Shown: in pieces, positions 26,036 to 29,368 of the stretch | How the letters are laid out: every line of letters begins with the position of its first letter | How positions within the stretch are numbered: the first letter of the stretch is position 1 | Assembly (NCBI GenBank): GCA_002733885.1 | Contig: NVXJ01000001.1 | Location: 109,298-171,301, forward strand | Length of the DNA: 62,004 nucleotides | Reading direction: 5' to 3' | Source of the DNA: Arcobacter sp. | GTDB taxonomy: Bacteria > Campylobacterota > Campylobacteria > Campylobacterales > Sulfurimonadaceae | Program-made: the position numbers and the translations under genes | The notes under the pieces: generated by a model | What the model was told of the DNA's origin: nothing | Database searches by the model: none | The model's input: only the letters and a program-made list of their open reading frames with translations

Positions 26036-29000
26036 TTATTTTTCGTCAAAACTACTATAATAGGAATCAATAGTTTTCTTAAGACTCTGAACATTCTCAC
26101 TTAACAATACCGTTAAATGTTCACCATCTATATAATTAACACTTACATTCTTCTCTATAAGCTGACTCCAACCATACTTAGTCATAACACTATTTCTTTG
26201 CATATTTTCATTTTTATCTTTAATAAATAATAATGATATATTAAGATCTTCTTTCATTGGTTTAAACCTATAATAATCATAAGCGAGTACTGCATATGGT
26301 ACTATTTGTGTCTTAGAATGATGTTCTAACTTATGCTTTGCAAAACTAAAAAACTGCATTCTACTCATTTTATTAAATATCTTTTTTATTTCAAACTTTG
26401 ATAAAGATTTTGTCATCTGAAATAATTGTTTATAGTTTTTCTTTTGAGGAACAGATGTATTAAGCATTATAATTGATTCAATCTCATCTTTTAAAATTTT
26501 TGCCATTTCATAAGCAACTAATGACCCCATGCAATAACCAATTAAGCGATATGGCCCATGCCGTTGTATTGATTTAATTGCCTTTACATTTGCTTTTGCA
26601 ATTTCAACAATCGCATTCACTGCTGAACTTGAGGATGTAGGATACAACATATCTAATCCATAAAAAGGTTGTGTTTCACCCATAACTTCGGAAAGCGCTT
26701 TATATATCACCGTGCTCCCACCTGCTCCTGGTAGTCCAAAAATTGCTCTTTTATTACCCTTAATTTGAATAGGAACTAATATTTCTTCGGAAGTTTTTTC
26801 TGCTTTAATCCATATTCCTAATTTTTCTACAGTTGGTGCCTGAAAAAGTACTGATGCTACTAACTTAATATTAAGAAACTTATTTACTTTTTCAATTAAC
26901 TGTACTGATAATAAAGAATGCCCACCTAGCTCAAAAAAATCATCATAAATACCAATTTCTTTTATTTTAAAAACTTCTGAAAAAATAGAACTAAGCTTTA
27001 CTTCAATATCATTTCGTGGTTCCATATATTCTCTTGACAATTCTCTTATAACTTCTATTTTGGCTAAAGCTTTTTTATCCACTTTTCCGTTAGAGGTTAA
27101 TGGCATTTTTTTCAAGAATACGATTGCACTTGGAAGCATATATTCTGGTAAATTCAAAGATAAATTTATTTTTATCCTAGCTGTATCTATTTTTTGATTA
27201 TTTGCAGTGATGACATATCCAACTAAAGCTTTTTCACCATGATTATCTTCATTAGCTAGTACAACCGCTTCCTTAATTTCATTTAATTGTATAAGTTGTT
27301 GTTCAATTTCACCTAACTCAATTCTAAAACCGCGTATCTTTACTTGGTCATCTATTCTACCAAGATATTCTATGTCCCCATCTTCTGTATAACGAACTAA
27401 ATCACCTGCCTTATACATTCTAGTACTTGTTTCAAATGGATTAGGTATGAACTTTTCATCTGTTAAGACAACTTGATTTAAATATCCTCGTGCTAATCCT
27501 GGCCCTGATATATAAAGTTCTCCTGCTACTCCCTGTGGCACTAGCTGGTTGTCTTTATTTAAAATATAACAAGATAAGTCTTTTAAAGTTTTTCCAATTA
27601 AAGTTTTTTCATTCTTTACATCTTCTTTGTATAAAGCCTTGTAGGTAGTATGTACTGTCGTTTCCGTAATCCCATACATATTAACGAGTAAAGGATGAGT
27701 GTCATTATATTTTTCATACCAACTAGACAAGACACTAAACTCTAACTTTTCACCACCAAAAATTACTTTTCGAAGACTATTTATTTTTTCTTTATGTTGT
27801 TTATCAACTTCTATAATTTGCTTAAATGCAGAAGGTGTCTGATTTAAAATAGTAATTTTTTCTCTACCTAAAAGTTTATAAAATTCTTCAGGTGAACGAG
27901 AAATCTCATAAGGAACAATCACAAGTTTTCCACCATGTAATAAGGCACCCCAAATTTCCCAAACTGCGAAATCAAAGGCAAACGAATGGAAAAAAGTCCA
28001 CACATCATTTTCATCAAACTTAAAGTCATCTTGAGTTGATTGAAAAAGCCTCTGAATATTTGTATGCTCAAGCATAACACCTTTTGGTTTTCCAGTTGTT
28101 CCCGAAGTATAAATCACATAGGCTAAGTTTTTAGACTTCGTTTTGGTTTTAGGATTGTTTGTCTGGTAAGTACTTAGGTCATTTGTATCTAAACAGACTA
28201 TCTTACTCTTAGTCTCAGGAATAAGACTAAGAAGAGTTTCGTGTGTTAATAAAATTTCTGCTTTTGAATCTTCTAAGGTATATTCAATTCTATCTCTAGG
28301 ATAAGCTGGATCAATCGGTAAATAGGCTCCCCCCGCTTTTAAAATAGCTAACAACCCAACAATCATATCTATTGAACGCTCAACACATATGGCAATAAGT
28401 TTATCTGCACAGGCACCTTCCCTAATCAAATACTGTGCTAACTGATTAGACCGTTCATTTAAGCACTTATACGTTAATGACTCTTTCTCAAAAACAACAG
28501 CAATATTATCAGGTGTTTTAGTTACTTGACTTTCAAAAAGCTCCTGTATCGTTTTAGATGCATCATATTTTGTCTCTTTTTTATTCAGTTCAAATAAAAG
28601 ATTATTTTTTTGAACCTGCGATAAAATTTCATATTGTGATATTTCCTTCTGACTATCTAAATTCACTTCGTCTAAAAGCATTTTAAAATTGTCTATCATT
28701 GAGGTAATGTATACAGGAGAAAACAAATCAGTCGCATATTTCAAAGAACCTAAAAGGATATTGTCTTTTTTCGTTATAGATAGGGTGATATCAAACTTAG
28801 ATGTCATTTTTTTTATTTTATCTCTAGAAATATCATTATCATTTAGAATAAACATAGCTTGAACTAAGGGCGCACGTGAGGTGTCTTTTACAATATTTAA
28901 AGCATCTGCAATTTCTTCAAATACCATGTCATTAAAATCATATGAATCTATAATTTTATTTTTTACTTGATTAAGCAATTTTTCAAAGCTAGAAGTATCG

Positions 29001-29368
29001 CTATAATCCTGTCTTAAGATCATAGTGTTTAAACAAGGGACTATTACATCTTTTATATTTACCTTATTTTGTATACAATCTGAAGTAGCAATAAGAATAT
29101 TATCTTGTTCAGAATACCGATGAAGTAATATCGAAAAACAAGTAAGCAAGTTCATCAACAATGTTGTGTCAAACTTCTTACTCAGTAAAGCGAGGTTAGC
29201 TGTCACTTCTTCATTTATTATAAAATCAATTGTTTGCATTTTTCCACTAGCTTTTAAAGGCCTCATGTAAGTTGTAGATAATTCTAGGACTTGACTTCCC
29301 TCTAATTGCTTTGTCCAATATAATAGTTTATCATTCTTTGAAGGTACACTTTTAGCTTTCATTAACAT
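26036..29368 (-). CDS. single-module nonribosomal peptide synthetase: C-domain remnant, adenylation, thiolation and thioesterase domains
   Basis: A-domain cores: LAYVIYTSGTTGKPKGV, FAFDFAVWEIW, NMYGITETTVH, GELYISGPGLARGYL, YKAGDLVRY, GRIDDQVKIRGFRIELGEIE, LTSNGKVDKKAL. Carrier: DFFELGGHSLL. TE: IFGLPGAGGS, GYCMGS, DGEH. An AGGAGA RBS precedes ATG 29368. Confidence 0.93.
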   Translation of the reverse strand: MLMKAKSVPSKNDKLLYWTKQLEGSQVLELSTTYMRPLKASGKMQTIDFIINEEVTANLALLSKKFDTTLLMNLLTCFSILLHRYSEQDNILIATSDCIQNKVNIKDVIVPCLNTMILRQDYSDTSSFEKLLNQVKNKIIDSYDFNDMVFEEIADALNIVKDTSRAPLVQAMFILNDNDISRDKIKKMTSKFDITLSITKKDNILLGSLKYATDLFSPVYITSMIDNFKMLLDEVNLDSQKEISQYEILSQVQKNNLLFELNKKETKYDASKTIQELFESQVTKTPDNIAVVFEKESLTYKCLNERSNQLAQYLIREGACADKLIAICVERSIDMIVGLLAILKAGGAYLPIDPAYPRDRIEYTLEDSKAEILLTHETLLSLIPETKSKIVCLDTNDLSTYQTNNPKTKTKSKNLAYVIYTSGTTGKPKGVMLEHTNIQRLFQSTQDDFKFDENDVWTFFHSFAFDFAVWEIWGALLHGGKLVIVPYEISRSPEEFYKLLGREKITILNQTPSAFKQIIEVDKQHKEKINSLRKVIFGGEKLEFSVLSSWYEKYNDTHPLLVNMYGITETTVHTTYKALYKEDVKNEKTLIGKTLKDLSCYILNKDNQLVPQGVAGELYISGPGLARGYLNQVVLTDEKFIPNPFETSTRMYKAGDLVRYTEDGDIEYLGRIDDQVKIRGFRIELGEIEQQLIQLNEIKEAVVLANEDNHGEKALVGYVITANNQKIDTARIKINLSLNLPEYMLPSAIVFLKKMPLTSNGKVDKKALAKIEVIRELSREYMEPRNDIEVKLSSIFSEVFKIKEIGIYDDFFELGGHSLLSVQLIEKVNKFLNIKLVASVLFQAPTVEKLGIWIKAEKTSEEILVPIQIKGNKRAIFGLPGAGGSTVIYKALSEVMGETQPFYGLDMLYPTSSSSAVNAIVEIAKANVKAIKSIQRHGPYRLIGYCMGSLVAYEMAKILKDEIESIIMLNTSVPQKKNYKQLFQMTKSLSKFEIKKIFNKMSRMQFFSFAKHKLEHHSKTQIVPYAVLAYDYYRFKPMKEDLNISLLFIKDKNENMQRNSVMTKYGWSQLIEKNVSVNYIDGEHLTVLLSENVQSLKKTIDSYYSSFDEK
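26054..26776 (-). other. NRPS type-I thioesterase domain with Cys at the nucleophile position
   Basis: G944-Y-C946-M-G948: the tgc codon at 26531-26533 on the minus strand replaces the usual GxSxG serine. The GEH1084 His motif lies near the C-terminus (26117-26119). Confidence 0.8.
26804..27022 (-). other. NRPS peptidyl-carrier (thiolation) domain
   Basis: GGHS motif with Ser818 encoded at 26915-26917 (tct on the minus strand). Confidence 0.85.
27044..28561 (-). other. NRPS adenylation domain, hand-derived specificity code DFWNIGMVHK (L-Thr type)
   Basis: See the motif list above. Code residues are D466, F467, W470, N509, I536, G538, M564, V572, H573, K762. Confidence 0.8.
28634..29368 (-). 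other. NRPS domain: C-terminal half of a condensation domain only (no HHxxxDG)
   Basis: aa 1 to about 245 begin at the ...LLYWTKQLEG...L.....RP region that normally follows the catalytic His motif. No HHxxxDG appears anywhere in the protein, and only 21 nt separate the ORF from kdsA. Confidence 0.7.

What the first reader, a model, noticed from the sequence alone, without database searches (positions are those of the whole stretch)
26036..29368. Stand-alone NRPS module (C-remnant/A/T/TE) embedded in a Wzx/Wzy polysaccharide locus
The 1110-aa ORF has every core adenylation motif, a carrier-domain GGHS serine (Ser818) and a C-terminal thioesterase. It has no second module and no catalytic condensation domain.

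It is the last gene of a tightly packed minus-strand run, manC-kdsD-kdsC-kdsA-NRPS. The gap to kdsA is 21 nt and it has its own AGGAGA RBS. Sugar-nucleotide, glycosyltransferase and export genes surround it on both sides. No other secondary-metabolite genes (PKS, further NRPS, MbtH, PPTase, tailoring oxidases) are visible in 62 kb.

The simplest reading is that an aminoacyl-S-carrier intermediate is off-loaded onto a sugar or glycan acceptor rather than into a peptide. That would be an NRPS-type route to an amino-acid-decorated capsule or O-antigen.

The same locus makes uronic-acid donors (ugd, plus a WbpO/WbpP-type pair expected to give UDP-HexNAcA). Uronic acids are the usual attachment points for amide-linked amino acids in bacterial glycans, and the Thr-bearing uronic acids reported in some marine capsules are a precedent for the product. 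I do not know of a characterised A-T-TE enzyme with this role.
Basis: partly seen in the sequence, partly recalled or inferred. Interest (0 to 1): 0.85.

Follow-up and report, generated by a model that had tools for sequence, protein, structure and literature searches.

The report
Lone threonine NRPS module in capsule locus
An intact single non-ribosomal peptide synthetase module, predicted to activate threonine and ending in an unusual cysteine thioesterase, sits inside a capsule/O-antigen gene cluster of an uncultured Arcobacter; it may attach threonine to a sugar, but that rests on gene order in one genome, and the cluster already carries a separate cassette for putting an amino acid on a sugar.

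Summary
ORF 26036-29368(-) encodes a C-terminal half of a condensation domain (no HHxxxDG), an adenylation domain with all ten core motifs, a carrier domain (Ser818) and a thioesterase. It is the only NRPS/PKS gene in 62 kb and lies mid-way in a ~41-kb Wzx/Wzy/Wza/Wzc polysaccharide locus.

New findings:
- The specificity code DFWNIGMVHK is identical to the Thr modules of PvdD.
- The TE nucleophile is Cys946 (GYCMG). Asn sits at the usual Asp position, and an Asp after strand β7 has the same spacing as in the ObiF1/SulM Cys-thioesterases.
- The gene is nearly an orphan. I found one diverged ortholog fragment (57% identity, same Cys/Asn) in a related genome, and none among 185,579 species genomes.

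An A domain activates the amino acid's carboxyl, so the product would be an ester or an N-acyl amino sugar, not a uronamide. The locus makes dTDP-Qui4N and GalNAcA, and N-acetyl-threonyl amino sugars are known. However, a VioA-WbqC-GNAT cassette like that of E. coli O121 lies downstream, and O121 makes N-acetylglycyl-Qui4N without any NRPS. The glycan role is therefore plausible but unproven (about 0.4).

The parts
26036..29368 (-). Single-module NRPS gene (1110 aa; probably 1108 aa starting at Met3)
   Evidence: ORF; Pfam domains; 100% match to P0001 / PHR59490.1 'MAG: non-ribosomal peptide synthetase [Arcobacter sp.]'
29372..29377 (-). AGGAGA ribosome-binding site, 9 nt before the second ATG (29360-29362) and 3 nt before the first
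   Evidence: Sequence read directly; coordinates checked
28595..29332 (-). C-terminal lobe only of a condensation domain (aa 13-258). The N-lobe and HHxxxDG are absent. Stretches resembling motifs C5-C7 can be read by eye
   Evidence: Pfam PF00668 profile positions 193-456 of 456; no HHxxxD; aligns to the C-lobe of LgrA/TycB/SrfA-C structures
27083..28537 (-). Adenylation domain (aa 278-762). Motifs A1-A10 are intact. Specificity code DFWNIGMVHK (aa 466, 467, 470, 509, 536, 538, 564, 572, 573, 762) predicts Thr
   Evidence: The code is identical to both PvdD Thr modules and to the best-matching A domains of five other NRPSs
26816..26998 (-). Carrier (T/PCP) domain (aa 791-851). Phosphopantetheine serine Ser818 (codon 26915-26917) lies in FFELGGHSLL
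26066..26743 (-). Type I thioesterase domain (aa 876-1101). Residues: Cys946 nucleophile (26531-26533), Asn970 at the canonical Asp site after β6 (26459-26461), Asp1051 after β7 (26216-26218), His1084 after β8 (26117-26119). The lid (aa ~976-1030) is lysine-rich, net charge +10
   Evidence: PDB alignments; motif scan; AF2 model, pLDDT 73, pTM 0.77, strand positions; fold search gives type I TEs; charge; conservation in relatives
29390..33032 (-). Upstream genes of the same run: kdsA (29390-30166), kdsC-like phosphatase (30166-30702), kpsF/kdsD (30788-31708), manC (31650-33032)
   Evidence: KdsA and KpsF score above the NCBIfam cut-offs
33129..35425 (-). TviB-like UDP-GlcNAc 6-dehydrogenase (33129-34391) and TviC-like 4-epimerase (34391-35425), the route to UDP-GalNAcA
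   Evidence: TviB 608 bits, cut-off 592; TviC E 2e-134, below its cut-off
24988..26016 (+). Inverted AT3-family membrane acyltransferase, convergent with the NRPS (19-nt gap), about 8 hydrophobic segments
19404..24800 (-). dTDP-Qui4N / aminoacyl-Qui4N block: rmlA (23886-24800), rmlB (22880-23959), vioA-type 4-aminotransferase (21784-22911), DegT-like 325-aa protein (20794-21771), GNAT (20278-20793), WbqC (19404-20093)
   Evidence: vioA matches E. coli vioA at 66-70% DNA identity. WbqC is 39% and VioA 43% identical to those of E. coli O121
18088..19389 (-). ATP-grasp ligase (PylC/carbamoyl-phosphate-synthase-like), a candidate for amide formation that does not need the NRPS
3774..5129 (-). PaaK/F390-synthetase-like adenylate-forming ligase near the 3' end of the locus

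Best explanation
The gene encodes a working, self-contained threonine-loading and off-loading enzyme that belongs to the polysaccharide pathway.

Proposed steps:
1. The A domain makes threonyl-AMP and loads Thr as a thioester on the phosphopantetheine arm at Ser818. The domains and motifs are shown. The Thr specificity is predicted from the code.
2. The half condensation domain has no catalytic site. It is kept only as a structural platform for the A domain (inferred).
3. The thioesterase takes threonyl onto Cys946 as a thioester acyl-enzyme, with His1084 and probably Asp1051 completing the triad.
4. The TE passes threonyl through the Thr carboxyl to a sugar nucleophile rather than to water (inferred).

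Candidate acceptors:
- The 4-amino group of dTDP-4-amino-4,6-dideoxyglucose, made by the adjacent rmlA-rmlB-vioA genes. Transfer could be direct or through the WbqC protein. The GNAT would then N-acetylate the product, giving an N-acetyl-threonyl-Qui4N residue next to GalNAcA, as in the Vibrio cholerae O43 O-antigen.
- A sugar hydroxyl, giving an ester in the manner of D-alanyl teichoic acid.

It does not make a threonine amide of a uronic acid.
For: - The ORF is intact, with all A, T and TE catalytic motifs.
- The Thr code is identical to that of the PvdD Thr modules.
- The gene lies mid-locus, co-oriented, 21 nt after kdsA, with its own RBS. Its GC3 equals that of its neighbours. There are no other assembly-line genes in 62 kb.
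- The TE is 57% identical in a second genome whose murI is 81% identical. The GYCMG Cys, the Asn and the His are all kept, so the gene has been maintained over substantial divergence.
- The closest full-length relative, P0139 (36% identity over the whole protein), has a degenerate C motif (HQIAVDT) and the same Cys/Asn TE. The lineage therefore seems to work without condensation.
- The locus encodes the amine acceptor (dTDP-Qui4N) and GalNAcA.
- N-acetyl-L-threonyl-FucN and N-acetyl-L-allothreonyl-Qui4N next to GalNAcA are known glycan residues (PMC10609480).
- TE off-loading onto a sugar has a precedent in Pks13 (PMC9210659), and Pks13 TE is among the best structural matches.
- Decoration of envelope glycoconjugates with amino acids through a carrier protein is established for AlmEFG (PMC4278540). 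Amide formation between an amino acid and an amino sugar using NRPS parts is established for lincosamide synthetase (PMC4351081).
Against: - The context rests on one genome. The only ortholog is a 1.2-kb fragment that shows murI, not sugar genes, on its downstream side.
- E. coli O121 makes N-acetylglycyl-Qui4N with VioA-WbqC-GNAT and no NRPS. The same cassette is present here, together with an ATP-grasp ligase. The Qui4N amine may therefore already be used without the NRPS.
- No TE domain is known, to my knowledge, that transfers an aminoacyl group to a nucleotide sugar.
- No Sfp-type PPTase is in the window, so formation of the holo enzyme is unverified.
- The NRPS sits at a mosaic junction, next to an inverted gene. 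Accessory DNA can lodge at such junctions.
- Promoter and terminator scans give no information (45 promoter-like sites against 40.8±5.7 expected).
Confidence: 0.4

Rival explanations
1. The module is a stand-alone small-molecule synthetase whose product has nothing to do with the glycan. The most specific version is this: the Cys thioesterase, with its Asp moved to the loop after β7 as in ObiF1 and SulM, closes the β-hydroxyl of enzyme-bound threonine onto the thioester. That gives a threonine β-lactone, possibly after N-acylation by another enzyme. Other versions are a threonine ester, amide or cyclo-oligomer.
For: - Cys946 is the nucleophile, Asn970 sits at the usual Asp site, and Asp1051 lies two residues after β7.
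- The spacing Cys-to-Asp 105 and Asp-to-His 33 compares with 108 and 30 in ObiF1 (C1146/D1254/H1284) and SulM (C2818/D2926/H2956), both of which form four-membered rings.
- The predicted substrate is a β-hydroxy amino acid.
- ObiF1's substrate is also a β-hydroxy-α-amino acid (PMC6668435).
- Within the family, Cys + Asn(I) + acid(II) alternates with Ser + Asp(I).
Against: - ObiF1 and SulM act on N-acylated or peptidyl substrates made by a working C domain, and none exists here.
- Free α-amino β-lactones are labile (general chemistry, own knowledge).
- Cys TEs lacking the position-I Asp are common among relatives: 27 of the 39 Cys TEs in the best 150. The feature is therefore not diagnostic.
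- ObiF1 and SulM are not among the 50 best structural matches.
- No transporter, resistance or tailoring genes typical of a metabolite cluster are present. The gene is packed into a sugar operon.
Confidence: 0.2
2. The gene is an evolutionary leftover. It would be the last module of a larger NRPS that lost its 5' part (and its partners) when it landed in a hypervariable polysaccharide locus. It is expressed or not, but has no role, for example because no suitable phosphopantetheinyl transferase exists in this organism.
For: - The C domain is cut exactly in half.
- All close homologs of the A domain are modules of multi-modular NRPSs.
- There is no PPTase or MbtH gene in the window.
- The gene is extremely rare: one ortholog fragment in the protein collections, and none in 185,579 species genomes.
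- It lies at a junction with an inverted gene.
Against: - The reading frame of 1110 codons is open, with every catalytic residue in place.
- It has a well-placed RBS.
- Its composition is fully that of the host, and the best non-self homolog is only 43-49% identical, so it is not a recent arrival.
- The TE is conserved, with its non-standard catalytic residues, in a genome that has diverged to 81% in MurI and 57% in the TE.
- A relative with a degenerate rather than deleted C motif suggests a stable lineage that works without condensation.
Confidence: 0.15
3. The module works in trans with NRPS, carrier or condensation proteins encoded outside the 62-kb window. It would supply or terminate a peptide or lipopeptide, and its position in the sugar locus would be incidental.
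For: - The retained C-lobe and the terminal-module architecture are those of a chain-terminating module.
- AB3403 of Acinetobacter, a single C-A-T-TE module that also has a Cys TE, is one of the best sequence and fold matches.
- In my own knowledge, AB3403 belongs to a multi-gene lipopeptide operon.
Against: - Without the N-lobe and HHxxxDG there is no site to receive an upstream chain.
- No partner lies within 26 kb on one side or 33 kb on the other.
- To my knowledge, NRPS genes are rare in Arcobacter. The literature search found nothing on this.
Confidence: 0.1
4. One reading: the NRPS attaches threonine by an amide bond to the carboxyl of GlcA or GalNAcA in the capsule.
For: - The locus makes uronic acids (ugd, TviB/TviC).
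- Thr-uronamides exist in nature: Rhodobacter sphaeroides LPS and H. influenzae type d (PMC10609480).
- The A domain is predicted to be Thr-specific.
Against: - The chemistry runs the wrong way. A uronamide needs the sugar carboxyl activated and the amino acid's free amine as nucleophile, whereas an A-T-TE module holds Thr by its carboxyl.
- The ATP-grasp ligase at 18088-19389, or the PaaK-like ligase, fits that reaction better.
Confidence: 0.05

Closest known systems
PvdD-type threonine termination module (C-A-T-TE) of multi-modular NRPSs
   Same: The A, T and TE domains are homologous (38-39% identity over 86% of the protein). The specificity code DFWNIGMVHK is identical.
   Different: Here there is a single module. 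The N-lobe of the C domain, with the catalytic HHxxxDG, is missing. The TE uses Cys/Asn instead of Ser/Asp. There are no partner modules, and the context is sugar genes.
DltABCD (D-alanylation of teichoic acids) and AlmEFG (glycine on Vibrio cholerae lipid A)
   Same: An adenylating enzyme loads an amino acid on a phosphopantetheinyl carrier, and the aminoacyl group is then put on an envelope glycoconjugate (PMC4278540). The proposed logic here is the same.
   Different: In those systems the ligase, the carrier and the transferase (an MBOAT or LpxL-type enzyme) are separate proteins, and there is no TE. Here everything is fused in a true NRPS module. The A domain scores below the DltA cut-offs (338 against 476 bits). 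The neighbouring membrane acyltransferase belongs to the AT3 family.
Lincosamide synthetase (LmbC/LmbN/LmbD; CcbC/CcbN/CcbD)
   Same: An NRPS-type A domain and carrier are used to join an amino acid to an amino sugar by an amide bond (PMC4351081).
   Different: That is a secondary-metabolite pathway with a dedicated condensing enzyme and a thiol-linked sugar. It has no TE, and the sugar is not part of a polymer.
Pks13 thioesterase domain (Mycobacterium)
   Same: It is a type I TE that releases its acyl chain onto a sugar (trehalose) instead of water (PMC9210659). It is among the best structural matches.
   Different: It has a Ser nucleophile, a very long lipid substrate and a PKS context. Sequence identity is only 16-18%.
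ObiF1 and SulM cysteine thioesterases (β-lactone / β-lactam formation)
   Same: Both have a GxCxG nucleophile. The acid residue lies after β7 rather than β6, with near-identical spacing. Both have a β-functionalised last residue.
   Different: They act on N-acylated or peptidyl thioesters built by active C domains. They are not the nearest structural neighbours. The position-II Asp here is inferred from spacing and a medium-confidence model.
AB3403 (Acinetobacter baumannii single C-A-T-TE module, PDB 4zxh)
   Same: It is a one-module NRPS with a Cys TE, and it is a top sequence and fold match for the TE (PMC11298585).
   Different: AB3403 has a complete C domain and keeps Asp at position I. 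From my own knowledge, it lies in a lipopeptide operon, not a sugar locus.
E. coli O121 / Shigella dysenteriae 7 O-antigen cluster (tviB-tviC-rmlB-rmlA-vioA-wbqC-GNAT)
   Same: The same set of genes occurs in this window (WbqC 39% and VioA 43% identical). The product there carries Qui4N(N-acetylglycyl) next to GalNAcA.
   Different: O121 has no NRPS, no ATP-grasp ligase and no DegT-like extra gene. Its amino acid is glycine. The two GNATs do not align.

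Membership tests
NRPS module (adenylation-thiolation core) | A domain with core motifs A1-A10, including Asp235 and Lys517 equivalents | tested here: met
   All ten motifs were found, with D466 and K762. TIGR01733 scores 458.7 bits against a cut-off of 317.4.
NRPS module (adenylation-thiolation core) | Carrier domain with the GGxS phosphopantetheine serine | tested here: met
   GGHS, Ser818; PF00550 E 3.8e-11.
NRPS module (adenylation-thiolation core) | Carrier converted to the holo form by a PPTase | not testable with these tools
   No PPTase was found among the window ORFs scanned. The rest of the genome cannot be reached.
NRPS elongation/termination module (C-A-T-TE) | Complete condensation domain with catalytic HHxxxDG | tested here: not met
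   Only profile positions 193-456 of 456 are matched. No HHxxxD occurs in the protein, and no HHxxxDG in any frame of the window.
NRPS elongation/termination module (C-A-T-TE) | Type I TE with a nucleophile-His-acid triad | tested here: met
   Cys946 aligns with the nucleophile of 7crn, FAS TE and AB3403. His1084 aligns with the GDH/GEH His. The fold is a type I TE. The acid is not at the canonical site (Asn970). Asp1051 after β7 is inferred to be the acid.
Dlt / AlmEFG carrier-dependent aminoacylation systems | DltA/AlmE-type stand-alone ligase, a separate small carrier protein and a dedicated transferase (DltB MBOAT / AlmG) | tested here: not met
   DltA models score 338 and 315 bits, below the cut-offs of 476 and 560. 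The carrier is fused. No small carrier ORF was found between the GNAT and WbqC genes, the only place where small ORFs were listed, and no PP-binding hit appears in any other ORF of 100 aa or more. The neighbouring acyltransferase is AT3. This is a resemblance in logic only.
β-lactone/β-lactam-forming Cys thioesterases (ObiF1, SulM) | Cys nucleophile | tested here: met
   GYCMG. The Cys is conserved in the ortholog and in P0139.
β-lactone/β-lactam-forming Cys thioesterases (ObiF1, SulM) | Catalytic Asp moved to the loop after β7 (position II) | tested here: inconclusive
   Asn is at position I. Asp1051 lies 2 residues after the modelled β7. The spacing 105/33 compares with 108/30. No coordinates were available to measure distances. 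The model has pLDDT 73.
β-lactone/β-lactam-forming Cys thioesterases (ObiF1, SulM) | N-acylated or peptidyl substrate delivered by an active upstream C domain; SulM-type Gln-Cys-Asn motif | tested here: not met
   There is no active C domain. The motif reads Tyr-Cys-Met. ObiF1 and SulM are absent from the top 50 fold matches.
NRPS-like A-T-TE enzymes acting on α-keto acids (TdiA/RalA type; own knowledge) | A domain lacking the Asp235 that binds the α-amino group | tested here: not met
   Asp466 is present, and the code is a full amino-acid (Thr) code.
Wzx/Wzy-dependent capsule/O-antigen locus (context) | Flippase, polymerase, Wza/Wzc export pair, nucleotide-sugar genes and glycosyltransferases in one block | tested here: met
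   wzx 13309-14772, wzy 8386-9747, wzc 36254-38560, wza 38572-39366, the phosphatase 35514-36245, and nine glycosyltransferases.

The most novel reading that the evidence does not exclude
A fused NRPS module with no working condensation domain uses its cysteine thioesterase to hand threonine directly to a nucleotide-sugar or glycan nucleophile. This would be a new off-loading chemistry for thioesterase domains. It would also be the first assigned enzyme for the N-(acetyl)threonyl amino sugars known from Vibrio cholerae O43 and Pseudoalteromonas O-antigens.
Probability: 0.25. Interest if true: 0.8.

Novelty: new variant of a known kind. Interest (0 to 1): 0.55.

Why it matters
Many bacterial surface polysaccharides carry amino acids on amino sugars (glycyl, alanyl, seryl, threonyl, aspartyl). 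To my knowledge, and in the papers I could search, the enzymes that install them are largely unassigned.

If this module is such an enzyme, three things would follow:
- Assembly-line enzymology would be linked to capsule and O-antigen diversity.
- Sugar aminoacylation would be added to the reactions known for thioesterase domains.
- There would be a compact, one-protein tool for attaching threonine to sugars.

The comparison with E. coli O121 also matters on its own. It singles out the WbqC family, which has no known function, as the likely amino-acid-adding enzyme in a notable pathogen serogroup.

If instead the module is a relic or an unrelated small-molecule enzyme, the finding is a curiosity of a hypervariable locus.

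Tried and rejected
- Synteny survey. A full-length search of 5.8 billion protein clusters gave only multi-modular NRPSs at 49% identity or less.
- TE-only and C-lobe-only searches gave one ortholog fragment and otherwise nothing closer than 36-38%.
- An exhaustive HMMER search of 1.84 billion representatives with the TE gave 6 hits at E<=1e-30 and no second full-length ortholog.
- Two scans of 185,579 species genomes gave nothing, then three ordinary Ser-TE NRPS/PKS loci.
- One metagenome scan gave a best hit of 35% identity, a 1545-aa C-x-A-T-TE(Ser) protein on a 5.9-kb contig with no context.
- The T-TE 'didomain proteins' P0123-P0127 were rejected as meaningful relatives. P0125 and P0127, whose contigs were inspected, are a gene cut off by the contig end and an overlapping call within a fragmented NRPS gene. 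All five carry Ser.
- The apparent frameshift in the ortholog fragment is a run of N, not a mutation.
- Promoter and terminator scans are at chance level.
- The literature gave nothing on NRPS genes in O-antigen clusters, on Arcobacter NRPS or capsule, or on WbqC function. The E. coli O121 cluster paper is not held.
- The 325-aa neighbour and WbqC have no detectable solved relatives. The 325-aa protein has only a weak DegT-like signal.
- The fold search could not separate transferase-type from cyclase-type TEs.
- I did not model the C-lobe or the full protein, because the tools return no coordinates.

Full report
**Observation.** The 1110-codon ORF at 26036-29368 on the minus strand is real. 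Pfam finds, in order:
- a Condensation match over aa 13-258 that covers only profile positions 193-456 of 456;
- AMP-binding (aa 278-630) and AMP-binding_C (aa 687-762);
- PP-binding (aa 791-851);
- Thioesterase (aa 876-1101).

A motif scan finds all ten adenylation core motifs and GGHS with Ser818. It finds no HHxxxD in the protein, and no HHxxxDG in any frame of the window. The condensation part is therefore the C-terminal lobe alone. It starts at the YWTKQLEG stretch, which follows the catalytic lobe in full-length relatives such as the protein on L006.

The gene follows kdsA after 21 nt (TAA TAA, then AGGAGA). The RBS is 9 nt from the second ATG, so the protein probably starts at Met3, as in the public gene call of 1108 aa. 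The sequence is PHR59490.1, 'MAG: non-ribosomal peptide synthetase [Arcobacter sp.]'. It is also present in JGI metagenome 3300005043 and in run SRR2297239.

**Surroundings.** Positions 3020-44560 form one minus-strand polysaccharide locus. In order of transcription it reads:
- pgi, galE, metK, ugd;
- wza, wzc and a CpsB-type phosphatase;
- a TviC-like epimerase and a TviB-like UDP-GlcNAc dehydrogenase (608 bits, cut-off 592);
- manC, kpsF/kdsD, kdsC, kdsA and the NRPS;
- an inverted AT3 acyltransferase gene;
- after a 187-nt AT-rich gap: rmlA, rmlB, a VioA-type 4-aminotransferase, a 325-aa protein with a faint DegT signal, a GNAT, WbqC, an ATP-grasp ligase and a pyruvyltransferase;
- two GT2, wzx, an unknown gene, two GT4, wzy and three GT4;
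- a PaaK/F390-synthetase-like ligase and a final GT2.

The right flank (rho, murI, dnaX, mfd, leuS, lptE) is housekeeping. No PKS, second NRPS, MbtH protein or PPTase was found. It omitted the ATP-grasp and PaaK-like ligases, which are two further carboxylate-activating enzymes.

**The adenylation domain.** The ten specificity residues read DFWNIGMVHK (aa 466, 467, 470, 509, 536, 538, 564, 572, 573, 762). Mapped by BLAST alignment, the same ten residues occur in both modules of PvdD and in the best-matching A domain of five other NRPSs, whereas their second-best A domains carry other codes. PvdD's two modules incorporate threonine, and DFWNIGMVHK is the standard Thr code (both from my own knowledge). 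Thr is thus the predicted substrate. The presence of Asp466 rules out the α-keto-acid-using 'NRPS-like' A-T-TE enzymes.

**The thioesterase.**
- The nucleophile motif is G-Y-C-M-G. Cys946 aligns with the serine of 7crn (GWSLGS) and of human FAS TE (GYSYG), and with the cysteine of AB3403 (GWCFG).
- The residue after strand β6, where type I TEs normally have the triad Asp, is Asn970.
- His1084 aligns with the catalytic His.
- An AlphaFold model (11-sequence alignment, pLDDT 73, pTM 0.77, lid disordered) puts Cys946 at the elbow after β5, Asn970 directly after β6, Asp1051 two residues after β7 and His1084 after β8.

In ObiF1 (C1146/D1254/H1284) and SulM (C2818/D2926/H2956), the two Cys TEs that make a β-lactone and a β-lactam, the Asp has moved to just that loop. 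Their spacing is 108/30, against 105/33 here (PMC6668435; PMC11298585).

The pattern is conserved within the small family. The ortholog fragment and the 1302-aa relative P0139 have Cys + Asn + an acidic residue after β7. The Ser-containing relative on L006 has Asp at the usual place and no such acid.

Among the 150 best TE relatives in 1.84 billion representative proteins, 95 combine Ser with the usual Asp. Of the 39 with Cys, only 12 keep that Asp. So this is a recognisable but broad class, and it is not diagnostic of ring formation. The fold search returns generic type I TEs (7crn, AB3403, Pks13, FAS, NocB, Vlm2) and does not place ObiF1 or SulM in the top 50.

**How rare it is, and whether it is alive.**
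- The best non-self hit to the whole protein is 43-49% identical, and all such hits are multi-modular NRPSs.
- Searching with the TE alone gave one true ortholog, on a 1156-bp contig of assembly GCA_029935855.1. It is 57% identical, with GYCMG, the Asn and the His all kept. Its apparent frameshift is a run of N.
- Two bases after its stop codon lies the 3' end of a convergent murI whose product is 81% identical to the window's MurI. The second genome is therefore a relative, and the gene has persisted through considerable divergence.
- Scans of 185,579 species genomes and of JGI metagenomes found no further ortholog.
- The C-lobe has no relative above 36% identity.
- GC3 of the NRPS (0.212) equals that of its neighbours.
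- P0139, the nearest full-length relative (36% identity over aa 5-1107), has a complete C domain, but its catalytic motif reads HQIAVDT. This suggests that loss of condensation activity preceded the truncation.

Together these points argue for a maintained, functional A-T-TE unit rather than fresh debris. The sample is two genomes.

**What it probably does.** An A domain activates the carboxyl of its amino acid. Whatever receives the threonyl group must therefore attack that carboxyl, as a hydroxyl (giving an ester) or an amine (giving an amide). For that reaction the ATP-grasp ligase in the locus is the natural candidate.

The locus does encode a sugar amine. The aminotransferase matches E. 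coli vioA at 66-70% DNA identity, and RmlA and RmlB precede it, so dTDP-4-amino-4,6-dideoxyglucose (Qui4N) is made. A review of glycan substituents lists N-acetyl-L-threonyl-FucN in Pseudoalteromonas agarivorans. It also lists N-acetyl-L-allothreonyl-Qui4N linked to GalNAcA in Vibrio cholerae O43 (PMC10609480). That combination (Qui4N, GalNAcA, an N-acetyltransferase and a Thr-activating enzyme) is what this locus can supply.

Precedents exist for each step of the idea:
- AlmEFG and Dlt put amino acids on envelope glycoconjugates through a carrier protein (PMC4278540).
- Lincosamide synthetase joins an amino acid to an amino sugar using NRPS parts (PMC4351081).
- The Pks13 TE releases its product onto trehalose (PMC9210659).
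- A thioester acyl-enzyme on Cys suits transfer to a weak or non-water nucleophile. The ObiF1 work made this argument, showing that the Cys-to-Ser mutant only hydrolyses.

**The main complication.** The E. coli O121 O-antigen cluster reads tviB, epimerase, rfbB, rfbA, DegT-type aminotransferase, WbqC, GNAT, wzx, GT2, O-acetyltransferase, wzy, asnB, GT4, GT4. The corresponding repeat unit (Shigella dysenteriae 7, which I recall to be identical to O121) is Qui4N(N-acetylglycyl)-GalNAc3OAcAN-GalNAcA-GlcNAc.

Every gene except WbqC and the GNAT is accounted for by the sugars, linkages, O-acetyl group and amide. By elimination, WbqC and the GNAT install the N-acetylglycyl group, with no NRPS or other amino-acid-activating gene in the cluster. 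The window's WbqC and VioA are 39% and 43% identical to those of O121. The GNATs are unrelated in sequence.

This locus would therefore be expected to make an N-acyl-aminoacyl-Qui4N even without the NRPS. Two readings remain:
- The NRPS feeds threonine to that cassette, changing the amino acid.
- It makes a second, separate substituent.

A third possibility is that it is not part of the pathway at all. I cannot separate these by computation.

**Verdict.** A glycan-decorating role is the best single explanation, at about 0.4. The uronamide product is rejected on chemistry, and the idea of carrier-dependent aminoacylation of surface polymers is not new.

Rivals:
- a Thr-derived small molecule such as a β-lactone (0.2);
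- a relic (0.15);
- a trans-acting module (0.1).

Relative to known systems this is a new variant of a known kind: a fused NRPS termination-module derivative in place of the separate Dlt/Alm parts. Interest is moderate (0.55). It would rise if the enzyme is shown to aminoacylate a nucleotide sugar.

Noticed in passing
window 3774-5129 (-): A 451-aa protein with no Pfam hit is a PaaK/F390-synthetase-like adenylate-forming ligase (NCBIfam E 2e-35; PDB phenylacetate-CoA ligases E 1.5e-18). It is a further acyl-activating enzyme at the 3' end of the polysaccharide locus. This suggests that the glycan carries yet another acyl substituent.
   Followed up: partly
window 19404-24800 (-) compared with L046 9480-16010 (E. 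coli O121): The window shares the tviB/tviC-rmlB/rmlA-vioA-wbqC(-GNAT) set with the E. coli O121 O-antigen cluster. Matching the O121 genes to its repeat unit leaves WbqC plus the GNAT, by elimination, as the makers of the N-acetylglycyl group on Qui4N. That is a functional lead for the uncharacterised WbqC family (PF08889).
   Followed up: partly
window 18088-19389 (-) and 20794-21771 (-): A PylC-like ATP-grasp ligase and a 325-aa protein with only a faint DegT-like signal (E 0.033) flank the GNAT-WbqC pair. Neither has a counterpart in the O121 cluster, and their roles are open.
   Followed up: no
L005 792-1154 (-) and window 46040-46783 (+): In the only other genome with an ortholog, the NRPS stop codon is 2 nt from the end of a convergent murI (81% identical to the window's MurI). 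In the window, murI lies 17 kb away on the far side of the locus and is followed by dnaX. The gene thus sits in the same chromosomal neighbourhood but in a different arrangement.
   Followed up: partly
window 26216-26440 (-), aa ~976-1030 of the NRPS: The thioesterase lid is strongly basic (net charge +10 over 55 residues; the whole protein is 0). It is lysine-rich in the ortholog too. That would suit an anionic partner such as a nucleotide sugar or an acidic glycan, but it may only reflect the lysine-rich proteome of a low-GC organism.
   Followed up: no
window 29390-31708 (-): The locus has kpsF/kdsD, kdsC and kdsA but no kdsB (CMP-Kdo synthetase). If the polymer contains Kdo, activation must rely on the housekeeping gene elsewhere.
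   Followed up: no
window 24801-26035: The AT3 acyltransferase gene is the only gene of the 41-kb locus on the plus strand. It is convergent with the NRPS (19-nt gap) and divergent from rmlA across a 187-nt AT-rich spacer. The arrangement looks like a junction between two operons, or a mosaic joint.
   Followed up: partly
P0139 (representative library, 1302 aa): The closest full-length relative is a single C-A-T-TE module with a lysine- and isoleucine-rich sequence, as expected of a low-GC genome. Its C motif is degenerate (HQIAVDT), its specificity code is unassigned (DPENIGNVDK), and it has the same Cys/Asn thioesterase. This hints at a small family of one-module enzymes that do not condense. 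Its source and context could not be retrieved.
   Followed up: partly
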